DNA of 64,000 nt, taken from positions 5,463-69,462 of the forward strand of contig MWCR01000005.1 in the NCBI GenBank assembly GCA_002070095.1, given 5' to 3'. The stretch is from Parcubacteria group bacterium ADurb.Bin192 (GTDB lineage Bacteria; Patescibacteriota; Patescibacteriia; 2-12-FULL-60-25). A program made the translations under genes and the position numbers. Positions 45,176 through 48,834 of the stretch are shown in pieces. The notes beneath the pieces were generated by a model. That model was not told where the DNA came from. It saw only the letters and a program-made list of their open reading frames with translations, and did no database searches. The stretch's first letter is position 1, and each line of letters begins with the position of its first letter.

Positions 45176-47065
45176 CTATTGGTTGTAAGGATCCCACACC
45201 CGCCGGCAACCCTCGCTGTAGGGGTTGGTCGGCAAAGTCACGGCGACTGGCTGGCTGGTGGACGTCTCGCCGTACACGTTGTACTGGGGCGAGCAGACCC
45301 CGTTGACCTGTCGGCAGTCGTAGCACATGCCTTGATAGCAAGCGCCAACCGTGCCCGTGTACTCCACGAGGAACTTGACCGGCATCTGACTGGGGGGCAA
45401 AAGTGCCGTGACCCAGCCGCCTTCGGCCGAGCTGTACGTCATGGGAACGGTCTTGTCCCAATCCGTGACGTGGACGTCTGACCCGATGCCAGAGGGCGCG
45501 TCCATGATGATGCGAACCTTCTTGAGGTCGCCCTTGTAGCAATCGTTGTCGATGCCGTCCTCCACGACTTCGACGTTGCCCGGGCGACGCAGGTAATCTG
45601 CATCATTGCAGTCCGTGCCCACCAACGATCCGTCGCCATCCGCGTCGTTGGCCGAGGTTTCAGCCCACTTGGCGGTGAAGTAGAGATCGCATCCGCCGTC
45701 GTTGTTGGTGTGGAGCTTAGCCTCGGGCCAGGCCGCATGCTTCTTCTGGCCGTCCTTGGTCACCCAGCACTCGTACTTGAGCGCCGGAGCCAAAGGATCG
45801 GACGTGCAGCCCGAGTTTTTCCAGAAGTTCCCAGGCTCAGGATTCACGGCCGTGTTGATCTTGATGTAAGATCCCCATTCGGACGTGAACGTGATGTGCT
45901 GAGTCACGGCCGTGGCGGTGTACGGTTGACCGTTTGCGCCCCACTGCTCCCAGTCGGTGAGCAAGTGGTAGTAGCCATTGGCCCCGTCAGGAATCCCCTC
46001 GTCCGAGATGTACGTGTAGTACTTCGCGGACTGGTTATCCGGGTGAGTGATTTGACACTCGACCGTGACGGGCTGGGCTTGAACGCCCGAGTCACTGCCG
46101 CCCGTGCCAGCCGTACCGCCAGAACCACCAGCTCCCGAGCTTCCGCCCGTGCCGCCCGTTCCGGCGTCGACCGTGTCGAGGACGCAAACACCAGCTTCGC
46201 AGTGGGTGTCGGTCCCGCACATGTTGTTGCAGGGGTCGGCCGCATCTGCGTCGGTTCCGGTGTCAGCATCCATGCCGGCATCCTGCTCGTCGAGCTTGCA
46301 GGTCCCCGACTGCTCATCGCAGTGGGTGCCTTCGCCGCACATGCCGTTGCAGGGGTCGGTGTTGGCATCCGTGCCGGCGTCGCTGCCAGCCGAACCACCG
46401 GTACCCGCATCGGCTTCGTTGAGCTTGCAGGTTCCGGTCGCCTCGTCGCAGTGGGTTCCTTCGCCACAGTGGTTGCCACAGGAATCGGTGCCGGCGTCGT
46501 TGGTCGTGCCACCCGTACCGGCCGCACCGGCTTCACCGGCGCATCCGGCCGAACCGCCCGTACCCGAGCTTCCGCCAGTGCCGCCAGTCCCCTGCTCGGC
46601 CACGCACTGTCCGTTGATGCAGGACGTGCCCGTGGCGCACTTGCCGCCGCACGGCTCGTCGGCCACACACTGGTCGGTATTGGCGTCGCAGTGCGTGCCC
46701 GTAGCGCAAGCGCCGCCGCAAGGCTCGGTCGTGTTACCACCCGAACCTGCCGTGCCAGCCGAGCCCGCCGTTCCGCTGGCGCCAGAAGATCCGCCCGTGT
46801 TGGACGAACCACCGGAACCAGCGACTCCACCGCTGCCCGAACTTCCGCCGGTGCCAGCCGTGTTGTTGGTGCCGCCGGTACCGCTGGGCGGATTGGTGGT
46901 CGAACCACCCGTTCCGCCTGTGCCACTAGCAACGCACTGCCCGTCGACACACGAGGTGCCAGACGAGCAACGCCCTTCGCAGTCGTTGGCCGGCGGGTTC
47001 GTGGTCATGGTGTTGCCGTACATCGTCACCACAAACAGGACCGCCAACATCTTGATGCTTTTCAT
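45176..47065 (-). CDS. secreted cysteine-rich repeat protein with MopE-like metal-binding motif (high-GC gene B)
   Basis: I prefer the ATG at 47065 (MKSIKMLAVLFVV), preceded by AAGGAGA; the track start is 47155. About 8 Cys units (CGGACATGTHCDANTDQC, CGNHCGEGTHCDEATGTC ...), with GTGG/GSGG linkers. C-terminal domain with DADGDGSLVGTDCNDADYLRRPGNVEVVEDGIDNDC. Confidence 0.8.
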   Translation of the reverse strand: MKSIKMLAVLFVVTMYGNTMTTNPPANDCEGRCSSGTSCVDGQCVASGTGGTGGSTTNPPSGTGGTNNTAGTGGSSGSGGVAGSGGSSNTGGSSGASGTAGSAGTAGSGGNTTEPCGGACATGTHCDANTDQCVADEPCGGKCATGTSCINGQCVAEQGTGGTGGSSGTGGSAGCAGEAGAAGTGGTTNDAGTDSCGNHCGEGTHCDEATGTCKLNEADAGTGGSAGSDAGTDANTDPCNGMCGEGTHCDEQSGTCKLDEQDAGMDADTGTDADAADPCNNMCGTDTHCEAGVCVLDTVDAGTGGTGGSSGAGGSGGTAGTGGSDSGVQAQPVTVECQITHPDNQSAKYYTYISDEGIPDGANGYYHLLTDWEQWGANGQPYTATAVTQHITFTSEWGSYIKINTAVNPEPGNFWKNSGCTSDPLAPALKYECWVTKDGQKKHAAWPEAKLHTNNDGGCDLYFTAKWAETSANDADGDGSLVGTDCNDADYLRRPGNVEVVEDGIDNDCYKGDLKKVRIIMDAPSGIGSDVHVTDWDKTVPMTYSSAEGGWVTALLPPSQMPVKFLVEYTGTVGACYQGMCYDCRQVNGVCSPQYNVYGETSTSQPVAVTLPTNPYSEGCRRVWDPYNQ

Positions 47066-47145
47066 CGGTATCTCCTTGAACTTACGCGGTCTGAACCATC
47101 TTGGCCAGCCGCCTTGTTGCGCTGTTGTTGAGCCGCGAACGGGGG

Positions 47146-47253
47146 CTAAAAGCACCCCAACGAACGGAAGCGAAACACCGCCATTGCAATAAATATCGCT
47201 ACCGCCAAAATCAAAACCATCAACTCAAACCCGCGCAAACCCTTCTGATTCAT
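47146..47253 (-). CDS. possible 35-aa hydrophobic peptide upstream of gene B
   Basis: My translation is MNQKGLRGFELMVLILAVAIFIAMAVFRFRSLGCF, preceded by GGAGGATTTT. Below the ORF-track length cutoff, with no homology evidence. Confidence 0.3.
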   Translation of the reverse strand: MNQKGLRGFELMVLILAVAIFIAMAVFRFRSLGCF

Positions 47254-47394
47254 AAAATCCTCCCAAATATTACGCAGAGCTCCTGATGAGGCACCGCTTG
47301 TTAGTTGAACTCAATTTTCAAGGTGCGCCGTTAAGGTGCACCTTCTCGGGTAACCGGCCTTATCCAGGCGGTTTTCACCCGAAAAGAACCAACA

Positions 47395-47423
47395 AATATA
47401 GCATAAAAAAGCGTTTTTGTCAA
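47395..47423 (-). promoter_or_regulatory. near-consensus sigma70 promoter driving the small ORF / gene B
   Basis: Minus strand: TTGACA (47423-47418), 17-nt spacer, TATATT (47400-47395). Confidence 0.6.
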
Positions 47424-47516
47424 CCGTAGCAAGACAAAAAAACATCATCTTGTTAATCGGCTGACAAAAATATCAATATTTAGCCTAAAATTAGGTCAAT
47501 TAGTTGTCTCGGACGG

Positions 47517-47544
47517 TTGACAAATGCTTCAAAAATGGTATAGT
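47517..47544 (+). promoter_or_regulatory. near-consensus extended -10 sigma70 promoter with no obvious gene
   Basis: TTGACA (47517-47522), 16-nt spacer ending in TGg, TATAGT (47539-47544). Confidence 0.6.
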
Positions 47545-47550
47545 CAATTT

Positions 47551-48069
47551 GCTCCCAAAAAGACACCAAAAAACGGGGGTACGGCCTCAAGGCTCCGGCA
47601 TTGCAGGCGACACCACCAGGGAAGGCCTCTGCGCGATCAAGAAACAACCGTTCGTACCAACGAACGGCTACGCAAAACGGCCTTAGAAAGGGAACTTTCT
47701 AAAAGACCTGGCTGGAGAAAGAGGCTGACATGATCCATCCGGTGGCCCATACGATACGTTGTTTCGGAAGCCAGCTCGGTTACCTTGGAGGTGAGTCATG
47801 CTGATCTTGGCACTACTCACCACCCTGGCCATGTTTCTACTCTGGTTGTATTCACAACTCCAATCGTCCGGCAGAACTTCCAACAGTCTGCCTTGGCCCG
47901 ATATCAACATCGGATTCCAGCCTACGATTTTACTCTACCTGCCCGCCTCACCCATCAACCAACGCTGGGGCCTGCGCCCGGTAGCCAACTGCATGGAAGG
48001 CGGCATACGCCTTCCCGGCCGACAATTTCAACCCTCCCCGCGACCCCAACTAAAGGGGCGCTTATTTTT
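47551..48069 (+). ncRNA. candidate structured non-coding RNA or very long leader (unclassified)
   Basis: Downstream of the orphan promoter, with GC visibly above its flanks. Several perfect local hairpins: ccgttcg-taccaa-cgaacgg, agaaag-GGAA-ctttct, ggtgagt..actcacc, ggaaggcg-gcata-cgccttcc. Ends at a T-run at 48063-48070. No conserved motif of RNase P, tmRNA or SRP recognised. Confidence 0.3.
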
Positions 48070-48834
48070 TTACTCAGCTTCCGGTGTAGCCGTTTCCCAG
48101 ACAGCTTCAAACATAGCTTTAAGCATGTTGTACATTTCCTGGCTTTCAATCAAAAACACGTAGGGAATATCTTTCATGAAAAAAATAAAAATCTTGCCGT
48201 CCACAAACACCATGTCGCCGGTAAAAGTATATTTATCGTAAGGAATGGTTCTTTTTTGCCACATGTTTTTATCATACGGCGGGTCAGGCATGCCCGGCTT
48301 GATGGCTACGATGGCCCGGCCATGCGCCCGGCTGGTCAAATTCACTCTTTCTTGTTCGTTAACCTTGGACAGTTTAACCGTGCCTTCGTCGCGCGCCACA
48401 AAATTCAAAACCTCACCCTTGGCCTCACCGATCATGGCACGGCAAGTGCTCACGCCTTCCGCACCTTCAAAAAACTTAACCATGGGCTTGCTGCTGCCGG
48501 CCGAATTAAACAAGGCCATAAACAAAGGCAGAGCCTCCTGCAATCTGTTTTCTTTTTCCTGAATAGCTTTTTTCTCTTGATCGGTCAGTTTTTTCAGCAC
48601 ATCCGGGGACTCGGCCACAAACATGGTCTTTTTGCCTTTTTCAAACGTAGCCATCAAACCCCGGCGCTTTAAAGCCTCAATCATAACATAGGTGGTGGCG
48701 CGGTTGACTCCGGCTTTTTTGGCGATATCCTGCACACTGGCCGGCCCCAGTTCCAGCATGGCTAAATAAACCAAAGACTCCTTGTCAGACAAGCCATATT
48801 CAGCTAAACGTTCAATTAATTCTTTCATAACCAT
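48070..48834 (-). CDS. TrmB-family transcriptional regulator
   Basis: N-terminal wHTH LAEYGLSDKESLVYLAMLELGPASVQDIAKKAGVNRATTYVMIEALKRRGLM, followed by a ~170-aa effector-like domain. Confidence 0.75.
   Translation of the reverse strand: MVMKELIERLAEYGLSDKESLVYLAMLELGPASVQDIAKKAGVNRATTYVMIEALKRRGLMATFEKGKKTMFVAESPDVLKKLTDQEKKAIQEKENRLQEALPLFMALFNSAGSSKPMVKFFEGAEGVSTCRAMIGEAKGEVLNFVARDEGTVKLSKVNEQERVNLTSRAHGRAIVAIKPGMPDPPYDKNMWQKRTIPYDKYTFTGDMVFVDGKIFIFFMKDIPYVFLIESQEMYNMLKAMFEAVWETATPEAE

What the first reader, a model, noticed from the sequence alone, without database searches (positions are those of the whole stretch)
47517..48069. Orphan near-consensus promoter followed by ~0.5 kb of hairpin-rich, GC-elevated DNA without a credible ORF: candidate novel ncRNA
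SEEN:
- The promoter is TTGACA-16 nt-TGgTATAGT at 47517-47544.
- Downstream are several perfect local stems: ccgttcg/cgaacgg; agaaag-GGAA-ctttct with a GNRA loop; ggtgagt/actcacc; ggaaggcg/cgccttcc; and aaggcc/ggcctt enclosing the first.
- GC is visibly higher than in the flanks.
- The region ends at a T-run shared with the convergent TrmB gene.
- The only SD-preceded ORF (47798..48163) would run through that T-run and 94 nt into the opposite gene.
- I could not find the conserved boxes of RNase P (GGAAAGUCC, ACAGAA..GGCUUA), tmRNA (T-arm/CCA end, ..LAA tag) or SRP RNA.

INFERENCE: an unclassified structured RNA or a very long regulatory leader.
Basis: partly seen in the sequence, partly recalled or inferred. 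Interest (0 to 1): 0.6.

Follow-up and report, generated by a model that had tools for sequence, protein, structure and literature searches.

The report
Structured leader, uORF and small-protein gene
The flagged 0.5 kb is not a free-standing RNA gene but the messenger RNA of a small, conserved membrane protein of an uncultured Patescibacteria bacterium, preceded by an unusually conserved, folded 180-nt leader and a short upstream reading frame that probably gate its translation.

Summary
ORF 47798.. belongs to a small-protein family: an N-terminal hydrophobic helix plus the C-terminal motif QRWG(L/I/V)RPVA(N/H)CxxGG. In this genus the gene keeps its place, convergent to trmB. Its changes are mostly synonymous (dN/dS 0.2-0.4; Arg as CGC/CGT/AGG) and its indels are in frame.

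The 5' half (47551-47729) is non-coding. It differs at 1 of 179 nt from the sister species, against dS 0.39 in trmB. It folds into a 146-nt multi-helix domain (z = -4.1) that matches no Rfam family. In a divergent homologue not used to derive the fold, changes avoid the helices (p = 3e-5).

The "variable linker" is a 24-codon upstream ORF (47730-47804). Its Shine-Dalgarno lies in the closing helix P1, and its stop overlaps the main AUG (ATGCTGA). Seven lineages keep such a uORF.

Best reading: promoter, then a structured leader that hides the uORF's ribosome site, then translation of the small protein coupled to the uORF, then a terminator. This works like hok/mok or a riboswitch platform, but the signal is unknown. 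In this lineage the ORF runs through its own terminator. No RNA data could be obtained. Interest is modest.

The parts
47517..47544 (+). Sigma-70-type promoter: TTGACA (47517-22), 16-nt spacer, TGgTATAGT (47536-44). The predicted transcription start is about 47551.
   Evidence: 11/12 matches, TG present. It is identical in G011, L023 and the L024 group. L053 has lost the -35 box but carries a perfect extended -10, TGaTATAAT.
47551..47729 (+). Non-coding 5' leader
   Evidence: Identity to the window is 99.4% (G011), 97.8% (L024/L030) and 92.2% (L023), against 41-64% in the uORF middle and 51-93% in the ORF. Alternative ORFs are broken by stops in L023. No Rfam match.
47550..47581 (+). P0 hairpin (47550-56 / 47575-81) with an A-rich 18-nt loop, at the 5' end of the transcript
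   Evidence: RNAalifold consensus. G-U and G-C alternate at one pair.
47582..47727 (+). 146-nt multi-helix domain. P1 47582-88/47721-27; P2 47593-99/47711-17; P3 47604-07/47707-10; P5 47623-27/47679-83; P6 47630-33/47671-74; P7 47648-54/47661-67; P8 47684-90/47695-701 (GNRA loop).
   Evidence: MFE equals centroid equals the alignment consensus; z = -4.14, 0/200 shuffles. L053 differences fall at 6/82 paired versus 24/70 unpaired positions, p = 3e-5. The P1 closing pair is C-G in the window and U-A in L053 under the cmsearch alignment. No pair with a change on both sides on the MAFFT alignment.
47721..47724 (+). Shine-Dalgarno (GAGG) of the uORF, 5 nt before its AUG. It lies inside the 3' strand of P1.
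   Evidence: Sequence. Predicted unpaired probability is 0.04-0.18.
47730..47804 (+). Upstream ORF of 24 codons (MIHPVAHTIRCFGSQLGYLGGESC*). It reads across the main SD, and its stop TGA overlaps the main start (ATGCTGA).
   Evidence: The uORF is open in the window, G011, L023 and the L024/L027 group, with an in-frame +3 indel. Its stop is TGA or TAA. Codon 4 is CCG, CCT or CCA, and CCC in the L053 fusion. Analogous uORFs of 29-36 codons that end over the main start occur in G013, L054, L055 and L056. In L053 a deletion fuses uORF codons 1-7 in frame to the main ORF.
47787..47794 (+). Shine-Dalgarno of the main ORF (GGAGGTGA). It can pair with 47815-47821 (GGUGAGU/ACUCACC) or with upstream segments.
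   Evidence: Its predicted accessibility is not unusual compared with 25 control genes.
47798..48163 (+). Small-protein gene as it stands in the window (121 codons). The conserved core is codons 1-69 (47798-48004). The tail, codons 70-91, runs through the terminator; beyond 48071 translation would occur only on read-through transcripts.
   Evidence: Homologues P0001-P0013. dN/dS is 0.16-0.38, with an excess of third-position changes. Syntenic homologues that end at ..CxxGG. AlphaFold is confident only for helix 2-24.
47945..48004 (+). Conserved C-terminal motif ASPINQRWGLRPVANCMEGG
   Evidence: Alignments A9 and A10. Six-frame profile hits centre on this motif in 41/121 genomes of the family. 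Codon choice varies while the residue is kept.
48040..48071 (+). Intrinsic terminator: stem GCGACCCC / GGGGCGC (48040-47 / 48055-61), then T-tract TTATTTTTTT (48062-71), which abuts the trmB stop codon
   Evidence: Sequence. It is conserved in all lineages while the sequence after it differs. Identity is 88-100%.

Best explanation
The region is one protein-coding transcription unit, not an ncRNA gene.

Layout:
- A near-consensus sigma-70 promoter starts an mRNA at about 47551.
- The first ~180 nt are a non-coding leader. It folds into a 5' hairpin (P0) and a closed 146-nt multi-helix domain (P1-P8).
- The 3' strand of the closing helix P1 (GAGGCUG) contains the Shine-Dalgarno of a 24-codon upstream ORF (47730-47804).
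- That uORF reads across the strong SD of the main gene and stops 4 nt past the main AUG (ATGCTGA).
- The main gene encodes a ~70-90-residue protein with an N-terminal membrane helix and the conserved C-terminal motif QRWGxRPVANCxxGG.
- An intrinsic terminator (48040-48071) ends the unit against the convergent trmB gene.

Proposed mechanism (inferred, not shown):
- When the leader domain is folded, P1 hides the uORF's ribosome-binding site.
- When P1 is opened, ribosomes translate the uORF. The opening signal is unknown; it could be a ligand, a protein, an sRNA, temperature or processing.
- uORF translation melts the local hairpins around the main SD/AUG.
- Ribosomes then start the main ORF by termination-reinitiation or by de-masking.

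In the window's lineage the canonical stop after ..CxxGG is lost. The ORF therefore runs through its own terminator, so terminated transcripts would lack an in-frame stop.
For: Coding status of 47798..:
- Homologues exist.
- Window versus G011, first 70 codons: differences by codon position are 12/6/24, dN 0.12, dS 0.74. Other pairs give dN/dS 0.22-0.38.
- In G002 and G013 the motif is kept with different synonymous codons (CGC/CGT/AGG, CCG/CCC, GTA/GTT, GCC/GCA/GCG).
- Indels are in frame.
- Synteny is conserved: surface-protein gene, ~500-nt gap, small ORF, then convergent trmB-GT4-mreB.

Leader:
- 1 difference in 179 nt versus G011, while trmB has dS 0.39.
- No frame in the leader survives in L023.
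- Domain fold has z = -4.14.
- In the four lineages used to derive the fold, every substitution falls in a loop or junction.
- In the independent homologue L053, substitutions avoid helices (p = 3e-5). Of those that hit helices, three keep pairing by wobble and one pair is compensated.
- L053 on its own also folds P1, P2, P7 and P8.

uORF:
- define it. All four Pro codons occur at codon 4.
- TGA, TAA and TAG all occur as the stop at the same offset across lineages.
- Non-homologous uORFs with the same geometry occur in G013, L054, L055 and L056.
- The in-frame uORF-ORF fusion in L053 shows that the uORF start region can serve as a start.
- The uORF SD is predicted to be paired; unpaired probability is 0.04-0.18.

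Promoter: the loss of the -35 box in L053 is accompanied by a perfect extended -10.
Against: - The transcription start, termination and uORF translation are all inferred.
- On an unbiased alignment, no base pair shows a change on both sides. The single compensatory pair depends on where a gap is placed.
- The homologues are close relatives, so structure support rests on where substitutions fall rather than on covariation.
- Predicted accessibility of the main SD is ordinary: 0.31, against 0.37 +/- 0.11 for 25 control genes. The anti-SD helix first suggested by RNAalifold is better explained as the uORF start.
- The leader domain is not detectable outside the window's clade, even in congeners that have the gene. 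Whatever it senses is not conserved in sequence.
- One contig (L024) has a 26-nt frameshifting deletion in the ORF.
- The protein's function is unknown: no Pfam or NCBIfam match, and the AlphaFold model is uninformative beyond helix 2-24.
Confidence: 0.75

Rival explanations
1. The whole 47551-48071 transcript is a ~520-nt non-coding structured RNA, and the ORF is fortuitous.
For: The 525-nt stretch folds better than shuffles (z = -3.8). The ORF has no stop before the terminator in the window. One contig carries a frameshifting deletion (L024). No known protein family matches.
Against: There is a synonymous-substitution excess, and indels are in frame. Syntenic homologues down to ~35% identity keep the peptide motif with different codons, including CGN/AGG. 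The ORF region is the least conserved part at the DNA level (51-93%), while the peptide motif is invariant.
Confidence: 0.04
2. The unit is a hok/mok/Sok-like type I toxin-antitoxin locus: a small membrane toxin whose translation depends on an overlapping leader ORF, whose SD is masked by the 5' UTR, and which is held in check by an antisense RNA.
For: The geometry is the same as mok-hok: upstream complementary strand, leader-ORF SD, and a leader ORF that reads over the toxin SD (PMC9841398). The product has an N-terminal membrane helix. There is 14-nt 5'-3' complementarity between 47619-32 and 48003-16. The gene evolves fast.
Against: No antisense promoter was found opposite the uORF start. 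The product is 62-94 aa with a conserved soluble C-terminal motif and has no similarity to Hok. The gene is single-copy, at a fixed chromosomal position beside trmB across the genus. In other genera the motif occurs in peptides without any membrane segment.
Confidence: 0.08
3. The leader's near-identity between lineages reflects recent recombination or a conserved crossover anchor between two hypervariable surface genes. On this view it is a plain, unregulated 5' UTR, and the RNA structure has no function.
For: Both flanks (the surface lipoprotein gene and the small ORF) are much more diverged than trmB. The whole 47303-47740 block, promoters included, is conserved as one piece. L027 combines an L024-type leader with a window-type ORF, which shows recombination in this interval. 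There is no formal covariation.
Against: Substitutions in the independent homologue L053 avoid helices strongly (p = 3e-5), and those inside helices keep pairing. The block edges coincide with functional edges (the minus-strand gene's SD and the uORF start). Long leaders (190-340 nt) with a start-overlapping uORF recur in congeners whose leader sequences are unrelated.
Confidence: 0.1
4. The gene is regulated as a natural non-stop message, as arfA and brfA are. [quoted passage not shown]
For: In the window and in L025-L032 no in-frame stop precedes the terminator. In G011 and L023 the UAA starts only at the 10th nt of the U-tract. The base after the tract is A, C or T in different lineages. 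tmRNA is present in the genome. brfA has exactly this design (PMC6881298).
Against: Congeners and L053 have an ordinary stop 30-90 nt before the terminator. The feature is therefore derived and confined to one sub-lineage. The tail after ..CxxGG is unconserved (40-45% identity). There is no similarity to ArfA or BrfA, and the membrane helix is at odds with a ribosome-rescue factor.
Confidence: 0.08

Closest known systems
hok/mok/Sok mRNA of plasmid R1 (type I toxin-antitoxin)
   Same: A small membrane protein gene whose translation depends on an overlapping upstream ORF. The SD of that leader ORF is masked by a complementary strand in a long, folded 5' UTR. The leader ORF needs to be translated only up to the main SD (PMC9841398).
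   Different: No antisense RNA promoter was found. There is no homology to Hok. The uORF ends 4 nt past the main AUG rather than overlapping the gene extensively. The product carries a conserved soluble motif. The gene is a fixed chromosomal neighbour of trmB rather than a mobile addiction module. Toxicity is untested.
Translational riboswitches (aptamer P1 3' strand overlapping the SD)
   Same: A closed multi-helix domain directly upstream of a start site, with the SD inside the closing helix. The domain is highly conserved relative to the genes it precedes. It lies in the 5' UTR, downstream of a strong promoter.
   Different: It matches none of the 4227 Rfam families. It is confined to one clade of one genus. 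No ligand can be inferred from the regulated gene. The regulated start is that of a uORF, not of the gene itself.
arfA (E. coli) and brfA (B. subtilis): genes translated from stop-less mRNA
   Same: A rho-independent terminator lies inside the reading frame, ahead of any stop codon (PMC6881298).
   Different: This holds only in the window's sub-lineage. There is no sequence or architectural similarity to rescue factors. The tail is unconserved.
Earlier notes of this scan on other Patescibacteria (e1-860027, e1-5086022, e1-2238189)
   Same: Promoter-to-terminator units of 300-800 nt, with a folded leader absent from Rfam and short ORFs. Two of them lie beside a TrmB-type or other DNA-binding regulator gene.
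   Different: Those with three-codon minigenes were read as non-coding RNAs, whereas here a 70-90-aa conserved protein is encoded. Any homology is untested.

Membership tests
Known structured RNA families (RNase P, tmRNA, SRP, 6S, GOLLD/ROOL/HEARO/OLE, riboswitch classes in Rfam 15) | Covariance-model match at or near the gathering score | tested here: not met
   No match at gathering score in the whole window. Only noise (E 1-9, eukaryotic snoRNA/snRNA models) in 47100-48300 at E<=10. tmRNA is found elsewhere in the genome at 103.6 bits.
Free-standing non-coding RNA gene | No reading frame under protein-level selection within the transcript | tested here: not met
   ORF 47798.. has dN/dS 0.16-0.38 and homologues with synonymous codon turnover. 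The uORF is conserved as an open frame.
Riboswitch / cis-regulatory structured leader | Lies between the promoter and the regulated start, and is non-coding | tested here: met
   Promoter at 47517-44. Leader at 47551-47729, with no conserved frame.
Riboswitch / cis-regulatory structured leader | Conserved secondary structure supported by covariation | tested here: inconclusive
   z = -4.1. Substitutions avoid helices (p = 3e-5). Four wobble-compatible changes occur. No pair has a change on both sides on the MAFFT alignment, and one (P1 C-G to U-A) on the model-guided alignment. Only five distinct, closely related sequences exist.
Riboswitch / cis-regulatory structured leader | Expression platform: a helix of the sensor overlaps an SD or a terminator | tested here: met
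   The uORF SD GAGG (47721-24) lies in the P1 3' strand. Predicted unpaired probability is 0.04-0.18. This is in silico only.
Riboswitch / cis-regulatory structured leader | Binds a specific ligand or factor that changes expression | not testable with these tools
   Needs in-line probing, ITC or reporter assays.
hok/Sok-type type I toxin-antitoxin | Antisense RNA gene with its own promoter opposite the leader-ORF start | tested here: not met
   No minus-strand promoter-like site in 47700-47900 at >=9/12 matches. This is a consensus scan only.
hok/Sok-type type I toxin-antitoxin | Small hydrophobic toxin with Hok-family similarity | tested here: not met
   No Pfam or NCBIfam match. The product is 62-94 aa with a conserved non-hydrophobic C-terminal motif.
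hok/Sok-type type I toxin-antitoxin | Overlapping leader ORF that reads across the main SD | tested here: met
   uORF 47730-47804 covers the SD at 47787-94 and the AUG at 47798.
arfA/brfA-type non-stop genes | Intrinsic terminator inside the ORF, conserved across homologues | tested here: not met
   Present in the window, G011 and L023 lineages. Absent in L053, G002, G013 and L056, where a stop precedes the terminator.
Small-protein family with the QRWGxRPVA(N/H)CxxGG C-terminus (unnamed; 'hypothetical protein' in the sources) | The motif at or near the C-terminus, after 1-2 hydrophobic segments | tested here: met
   Alignment A10. 10 cluster representatives at E<=1e-3 among 1.84 billion proteins.
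Small-protein family with the QRWGxRPVA(N/H)CxxGG C-terminus (unnamed; 'hypothetical protein' in the sources) | Position convergent to a TrmB-family regulator gene | tested here: met
   Window; G002 and G013; L054 and L056; motif peptides in other genera, L046 and L047.

The most novel reading that the evidence does not exclude
The 146-nt domain would be an undescribed sensor RNA, either riboswitch-like or protein-responsive. It would act at one remove: it gates the ribosome-binding site of a uORF, and translation of that uORF then switches on a small membrane peptide. That peptide's invariant QRWGxRPVANCxxGG tail is the conserved partner of the adjacent TrmB-family regulator across a Patescibacteria family. 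In the window's lineage, output would be tuned further because the gene is translated from a stop-less, terminator-truncated mRNA.
Probability: 0.15. Interest if true: 0.55.

Novelty: new member of a known kind. Interest (0 to 1): 0.3.

Why it matters
The result removes a false 'novel 500-nt ncRNA' and replaces it with a correct gene model that automatic annotation handles poorly. That model has a small conserved protein, a start-overlapping uORF and a long structured leader.

Small proteins and their control elements are almost uncharted in Patescibacteria. Here both the peptide motif and its pairing with a TrmB-type regulator recur across at least 16 genera of one family, so the pair is a tractable target for finding out what these regulators control.

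The leader is a clean candidate for a translational switch acting through a uORF. However, it is confined to a narrow clade and its signal is unknown, so the general significance is modest.

Tried and rejected
1. Known RNA families: Rfam at gathering score and at E<=10 gave nothing. ARAGORN found no tRNA or tmRNA.

3. Wider homologues of the leader:
- blastn in 41 relatives and 22 congeners found only G011.
- Covariance model R1 in 101 genomes of the family found only the own genome; the sample did not include G011.
- R1 with filters off on the syntenic loci of G002, G013, G004, G018, L054, L055 and L056 found nothing.
The scan of genome contigs found only G011.

4. The protein-pattern scan of metagenome contigs gave no confirmed locus.

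5. The RNAalifold 'anti-SD' helix (47729-41 with 47790-47803) as the switch was dropped. L053 keeps CATGATCCATCC although its partner is deleted. The segment is the uORF start with synonymous third-position changes. The accessibility of the main SD is ordinary.

6. Alternative coding frames in the leader, on both strands, are interrupted or change only non-synonymously in L023.

7. Direct-repeat complementarity between the two divergent leaders, which would suggest a trans-antisense pair as in tisB/istR, amounts to only an 11-nt imperfect match.

8. The structure prediction of the protein is uninformative beyond the N-terminal helix (pLDDT 61), so no fold search was run.

9. An RNase P, SRP or 6S identity was not pursued beyond Rfam, because the 3' half is coding.
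Full report
**Setting**

The window is contig C5 of a 1.44-Mb, 100%-complete genome. The sister species' record is titled 'MAG: Patescibacteria group bacterium'. Related contigs come from anaerobic-digester metagenomes.

The gene order around the finding is as follows:
- a G+C-rich cysteine-repeat surface protein gene (45176-47155, minus strand);
- a 0.9-kb gap that contains the finding;
- then the convergent genes trmB-family regulator (48070-48834, PF01978), a GT4 glycosyltransferase and mreB.

**Observation**

- The promoter TTGACA-16-TGgTATAGT scores 11/12 with an extended -10.
- The listed stems are all present at the coordinates given under 'parts'.
- G+C is 0.50-0.57, against 0.39 upstream.
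- The T-tract at 48062-48071 overlaps the trmB stop codon.
- ORF 47798-48163 runs through that tract.
- Rfam gives no match at gathering score in the window, and only noise at E<=10 in 47100-48300. ARAGORN finds nothing. The genome's tmRNA is on another contig.
- The 525-nt stretch folds better than its shuffles (z = -3.8).

**The 3' half is a protein-coding gene**

A search of 5.8 billion proteins found five relatives of the ORF. I fetched their contigs and aligned them.

Evidence from close relatives:
- Against the sister species G011 (found), the first 70 codons differ at codon positions 1/2/3 in 12/6/24 places. This gives dN 0.12 and dS 0.74.
- Other pairs give dN/dS of 0.22-0.38.
- Indels are in frame.

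Evidence from more distant relatives:
- A six-frame profile search of 121 genomes of the family hit 41 genomes. The hits centre on residues 53-77.
- Reading the best loci showed complete syntenic genes in two congeners, both convergent to trmB. G002 encodes 74 aa ending ...ANPLSQRWGIRPVANCGCGA*. G013 encodes 69 aa ending ...ANPLDQRWGVRPVAFCGMGG*.
- A second database search added P0006-P0013, 62-74 aa long. Most of these end exactly at ..RPVANCxxGG.
- Four of their contigs show the same neighbourhood.
- Across these genes the motif is written with different synonymous codons. Arg appears as CGC/CGT/AGG, Pro as CCG/CCC, Val as GTA/GTT, Ala as GCC/GCA/GCG, and Cys as TGC/TGT. Only selection on the peptide explains this.
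- In other genera the motif sits in 28-50-residue peptides, again partly beside trmB-like genes.

The full-length family is small: 10 cluster representatives among 1.84 billion proteins. It has no Pfam or NCBIfam model. AlphaFold is confident only about an N-terminal helix, residues 2-24.

**The tail and the terminator**

Canonical family members stop right after ..CxxGG, and they have an ordinary terminator 30-90 nt further on.

In the window, G011 and L023 lineages that stop is missing. The frame continues for 22-25 poorly conserved codons (40-45% DNA identity). It runs through the terminator stem (48040-47/48055-61) and the U-tract.
- G011 and L023 then have UAA, which starts at the tenth base of the tract.
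- The window, L030 and L032 have UAC.
- L025-L029 have UAU.

Intrinsic termination normally releases RNA 7-9 nt after the stem (general knowledge). Terminated messages in this lineage would therefore lack a stop codon, as in brfA and arfA (PMC6881298).

The feature is derived and confined to one sub-lineage, and the tail is unconserved. I therefore treat it as a tolerated accident rather than a designed control (8% for the latter).

**The 5' half is a conserved, folded, non-coding leader**

Conservation:
- From the predicted start (~47551) to 47729, the window differs from G011 at 1 of 179 positions.
- The flanking trmB gene has dS 0.39 (51 differences in 744 nt, 44 of them at third positions).
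- Identity to the more distant L023 is 92%, against 51% for the ORF.
- None of the six frames in the leader is maintained in L023.

Structure:
- RNAalifold on five sequences gives a 5' hairpin (P0) and a closed domain at 47582-47727, with helices P1-P3 stacked onto a junction that bears P5-P6-P7 and P8.
- The isolated domain folds into exactly this structure. MFE equals centroid at -55.6 kcal/mol, with z = -4.14.
- All substitutions among the four lineages used to derive the fold lie in loops or junctions. That observation is not independent of the prediction.

An independent test came from L053, a more divergent homologue found through protein P0009 (119 bits with model R1).
- It differs from L023 at 6 of 82 paired positions and at 24 of 70 unpaired positions (Fisher p = 3e-5).
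- Three of the paired changes keep pairing through G-U.
- One pair, the closing pair of P1, changes from C-G to U-A if the adjacent 2-nt gap is placed as cmsearch places it.
- One change (in P6) breaks a pair.
- On the MAFFT alignment, no pair has a change on both sides.
- L053 folded alone also gives P1, P2, P7 and P8.

So the structure is well supported by the placement of substitutions, but it is not proven by covariation.

The domain is restricted to this clade.
- Model R1 finds nothing significant in 100 other genomes of the family.
- It finds nothing in the syntenic leaders of congeners.
- Pattern scans of metagenome and genome collections gave only chance hits and G011.

**The 'variable linker' is an upstream ORF**

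RNAalifold first paired 47729-47741 (CAUGAUCCAUCC) with the main SD/AUG. Three observations overturn that reading.
- In L053 the partner is deleted, yet the segment is intact.
- The changes in the segment are third-position changes of an ATG-initiated frame. Codon 2 is ATC/ATT, codon 4 is CCG/CCT/CCA/CCC and codon 5 is GTG/GTA.
- That frame (47730-47804, 24 codons) stays open in all four lineages through the otherwise scrambled stretch (41-64% identity). It includes a +3 indel, and it always stops at the same place, 4 nt beyond the main AUG (ATGCTGA or ATGCTAA).

Congeners with unrelated leaders have the same device.
- L056: a 36-codon uORF ending ...GGGSC* over ATGCTAG.
- L054: about 36 codons.
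- L055: 32 codons.
- G013: 29 codons, with an ATGA overlap.
- No uORF of 20 or more codons was seen in G002.

In L053 a deletion joins uORF codons 1-7 in frame to the main ORF. That gene therefore depends on the uORF's start region.

The uORF's SD (GAGG, 47721-24) lies inside the 3' strand of P1. It is predicted to be paired, with an unpaired probability of 0.04-0.18.

**Mechanism**

Shown by comparative sequence analysis:
- a promoter;
- a constrained, folded leader;
- a conserved uORF that overlaps the main start;
- a conserved small-protein gene;
- a terminator.

Inferred:
- The folded domain masks the uORF's ribosome site.
- Opening of P1 lets the uORF be translated.
- uORF translation carries ribosomes across the main SD and the local GGUGAGU/ACUCACC hairpin, and so permits initiation at 47798.

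This is the logic of mok-hok (PMC9841398) and of translational riboswitches. I could not identify the trigger.

One test counts against a simple 'main SD is sequestered' model. The predicted accessibility of the main start is ordinary (0.31, against 0.37 +/- 0.11 for 25 control genes).

Long leaders (about 190-340 nt from the predicted promoters) are a constant of this gene in the genus. This argues that control at the leader matters even though the leader sequence turns over.

**Comparison and novelty**

- The unit works like hok/mok, but it fails the membership tests for a type I toxin-antitoxin locus. It has no antisense promoter and no Hok similarity, and it holds a fixed chromosomal position.
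- It has the layout of a riboswitch, but it matches no known class and has no inferable ligand.
- It shares the terminator-in-ORF trait of arfA/brfA in one sub-lineage only.

I file it as a new member of a known kind: a structured, uORF-coupled leader in front of a small membrane-protein gene. The protein family and the RNA domain are both undescribed. However, the domain is narrowly distributed and the function is unknown, so interest is modest (0.3).

**Limits**

- Only five distinct leader sequences exist.
- All structure and accessibility statements are predictions.

Noticed in passing
window 47395-47524: The -35 regions of the two divergent promoters form a perfect 12-nt inverted repeat: TTTGTCAACCGT at 47416-27 and ACGGTTGACAAA at 47513-24. 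A third, imperfect copy (CGGCTGACAAAAA, 47458-70) and the palindrome CCTAAAATTAGG (47484-95) lie between them. The whole spacer is 94-98% identical across lineages. These are candidate operator sites, perhaps for the adjacent TrmB-family regulator.
   Followed up: partly
window 47254-47388 (minus strand): The divergent transcript from TTGACA-17-TATATT (47423-47395) has a ~135-nt leader with hairpins, including the palindrome AAGGTGCACCTT. This leader is recognisably conserved in congeners: G018 at 70% over 120 nt, and similar sequences in G002, L053 and L056. It is therefore more widely conserved than the plus-strand leader.
   Followed up: partly
window 47146-47253 (minus strand); L024 1151-1456, L027 2271-2576, L030 890-1195: The first ORF after the minus-strand leader is 35 aa in the window and in L025/L029, but 101 aa in other strains. 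This suggests a strain-variable truncation or frameshift of a small hydrophobic protein ahead of the surface-protein gene. The 101-aa form has no Pfam match.
   Followed up: no
L002 2081-2432 (G011); L025-L029, downstream of the terminator: Immediately after the shared terminator, strains differ by insertions. G011 has ~350 bp. The L025 group has ~115 bp, beginning AAGCAATTACGAATAATTATCAAAAACCGCGTCATTCC. These resemble the GTCAT...-type hairpin modules noted elsewhere in this genome (e1-2974327). The terminator marks a strain-variable insertion point.
   Followed up: no
L024 ~2100-2130 (aligns to window 47898-47923): One metagenome contig has a 26-nt deletion in the small ORF that shifts the frame ahead of the conserved motif. 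It is either a pseudogene allele or an assembly error. L030 and L032, which carry the same leader type, are intact.
   Followed up: no
L027 versus L024 and the window (alignment A3): L027 combines the L024-type leader and uORF with the window-type ORF and downstream insertion. This is evidence for recombination between alleles within this 0.8-kb interval.
   Followed up: no
L044 and L050 (G060, G116); L045, L051, L048: In other genera the RWGLRPVAHCPxGA motif occurs in 28-50-residue peptides without a membrane segment. Two of these sit next to a tyrosine-recombinase gene and a tRNA-like sequence, that is, possibly on integrated elements.
   Followed up: partly
window 45176-47155 versus G011 and L023: The N-terminal third of the upstream surface protein is essentially unalignable between the window and G011 (36-42% column identity), while trmB is 93% identical (51 differences in 744 nt). 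Both genes that flank the conserved control region are hypervariable.
   Followed up: no
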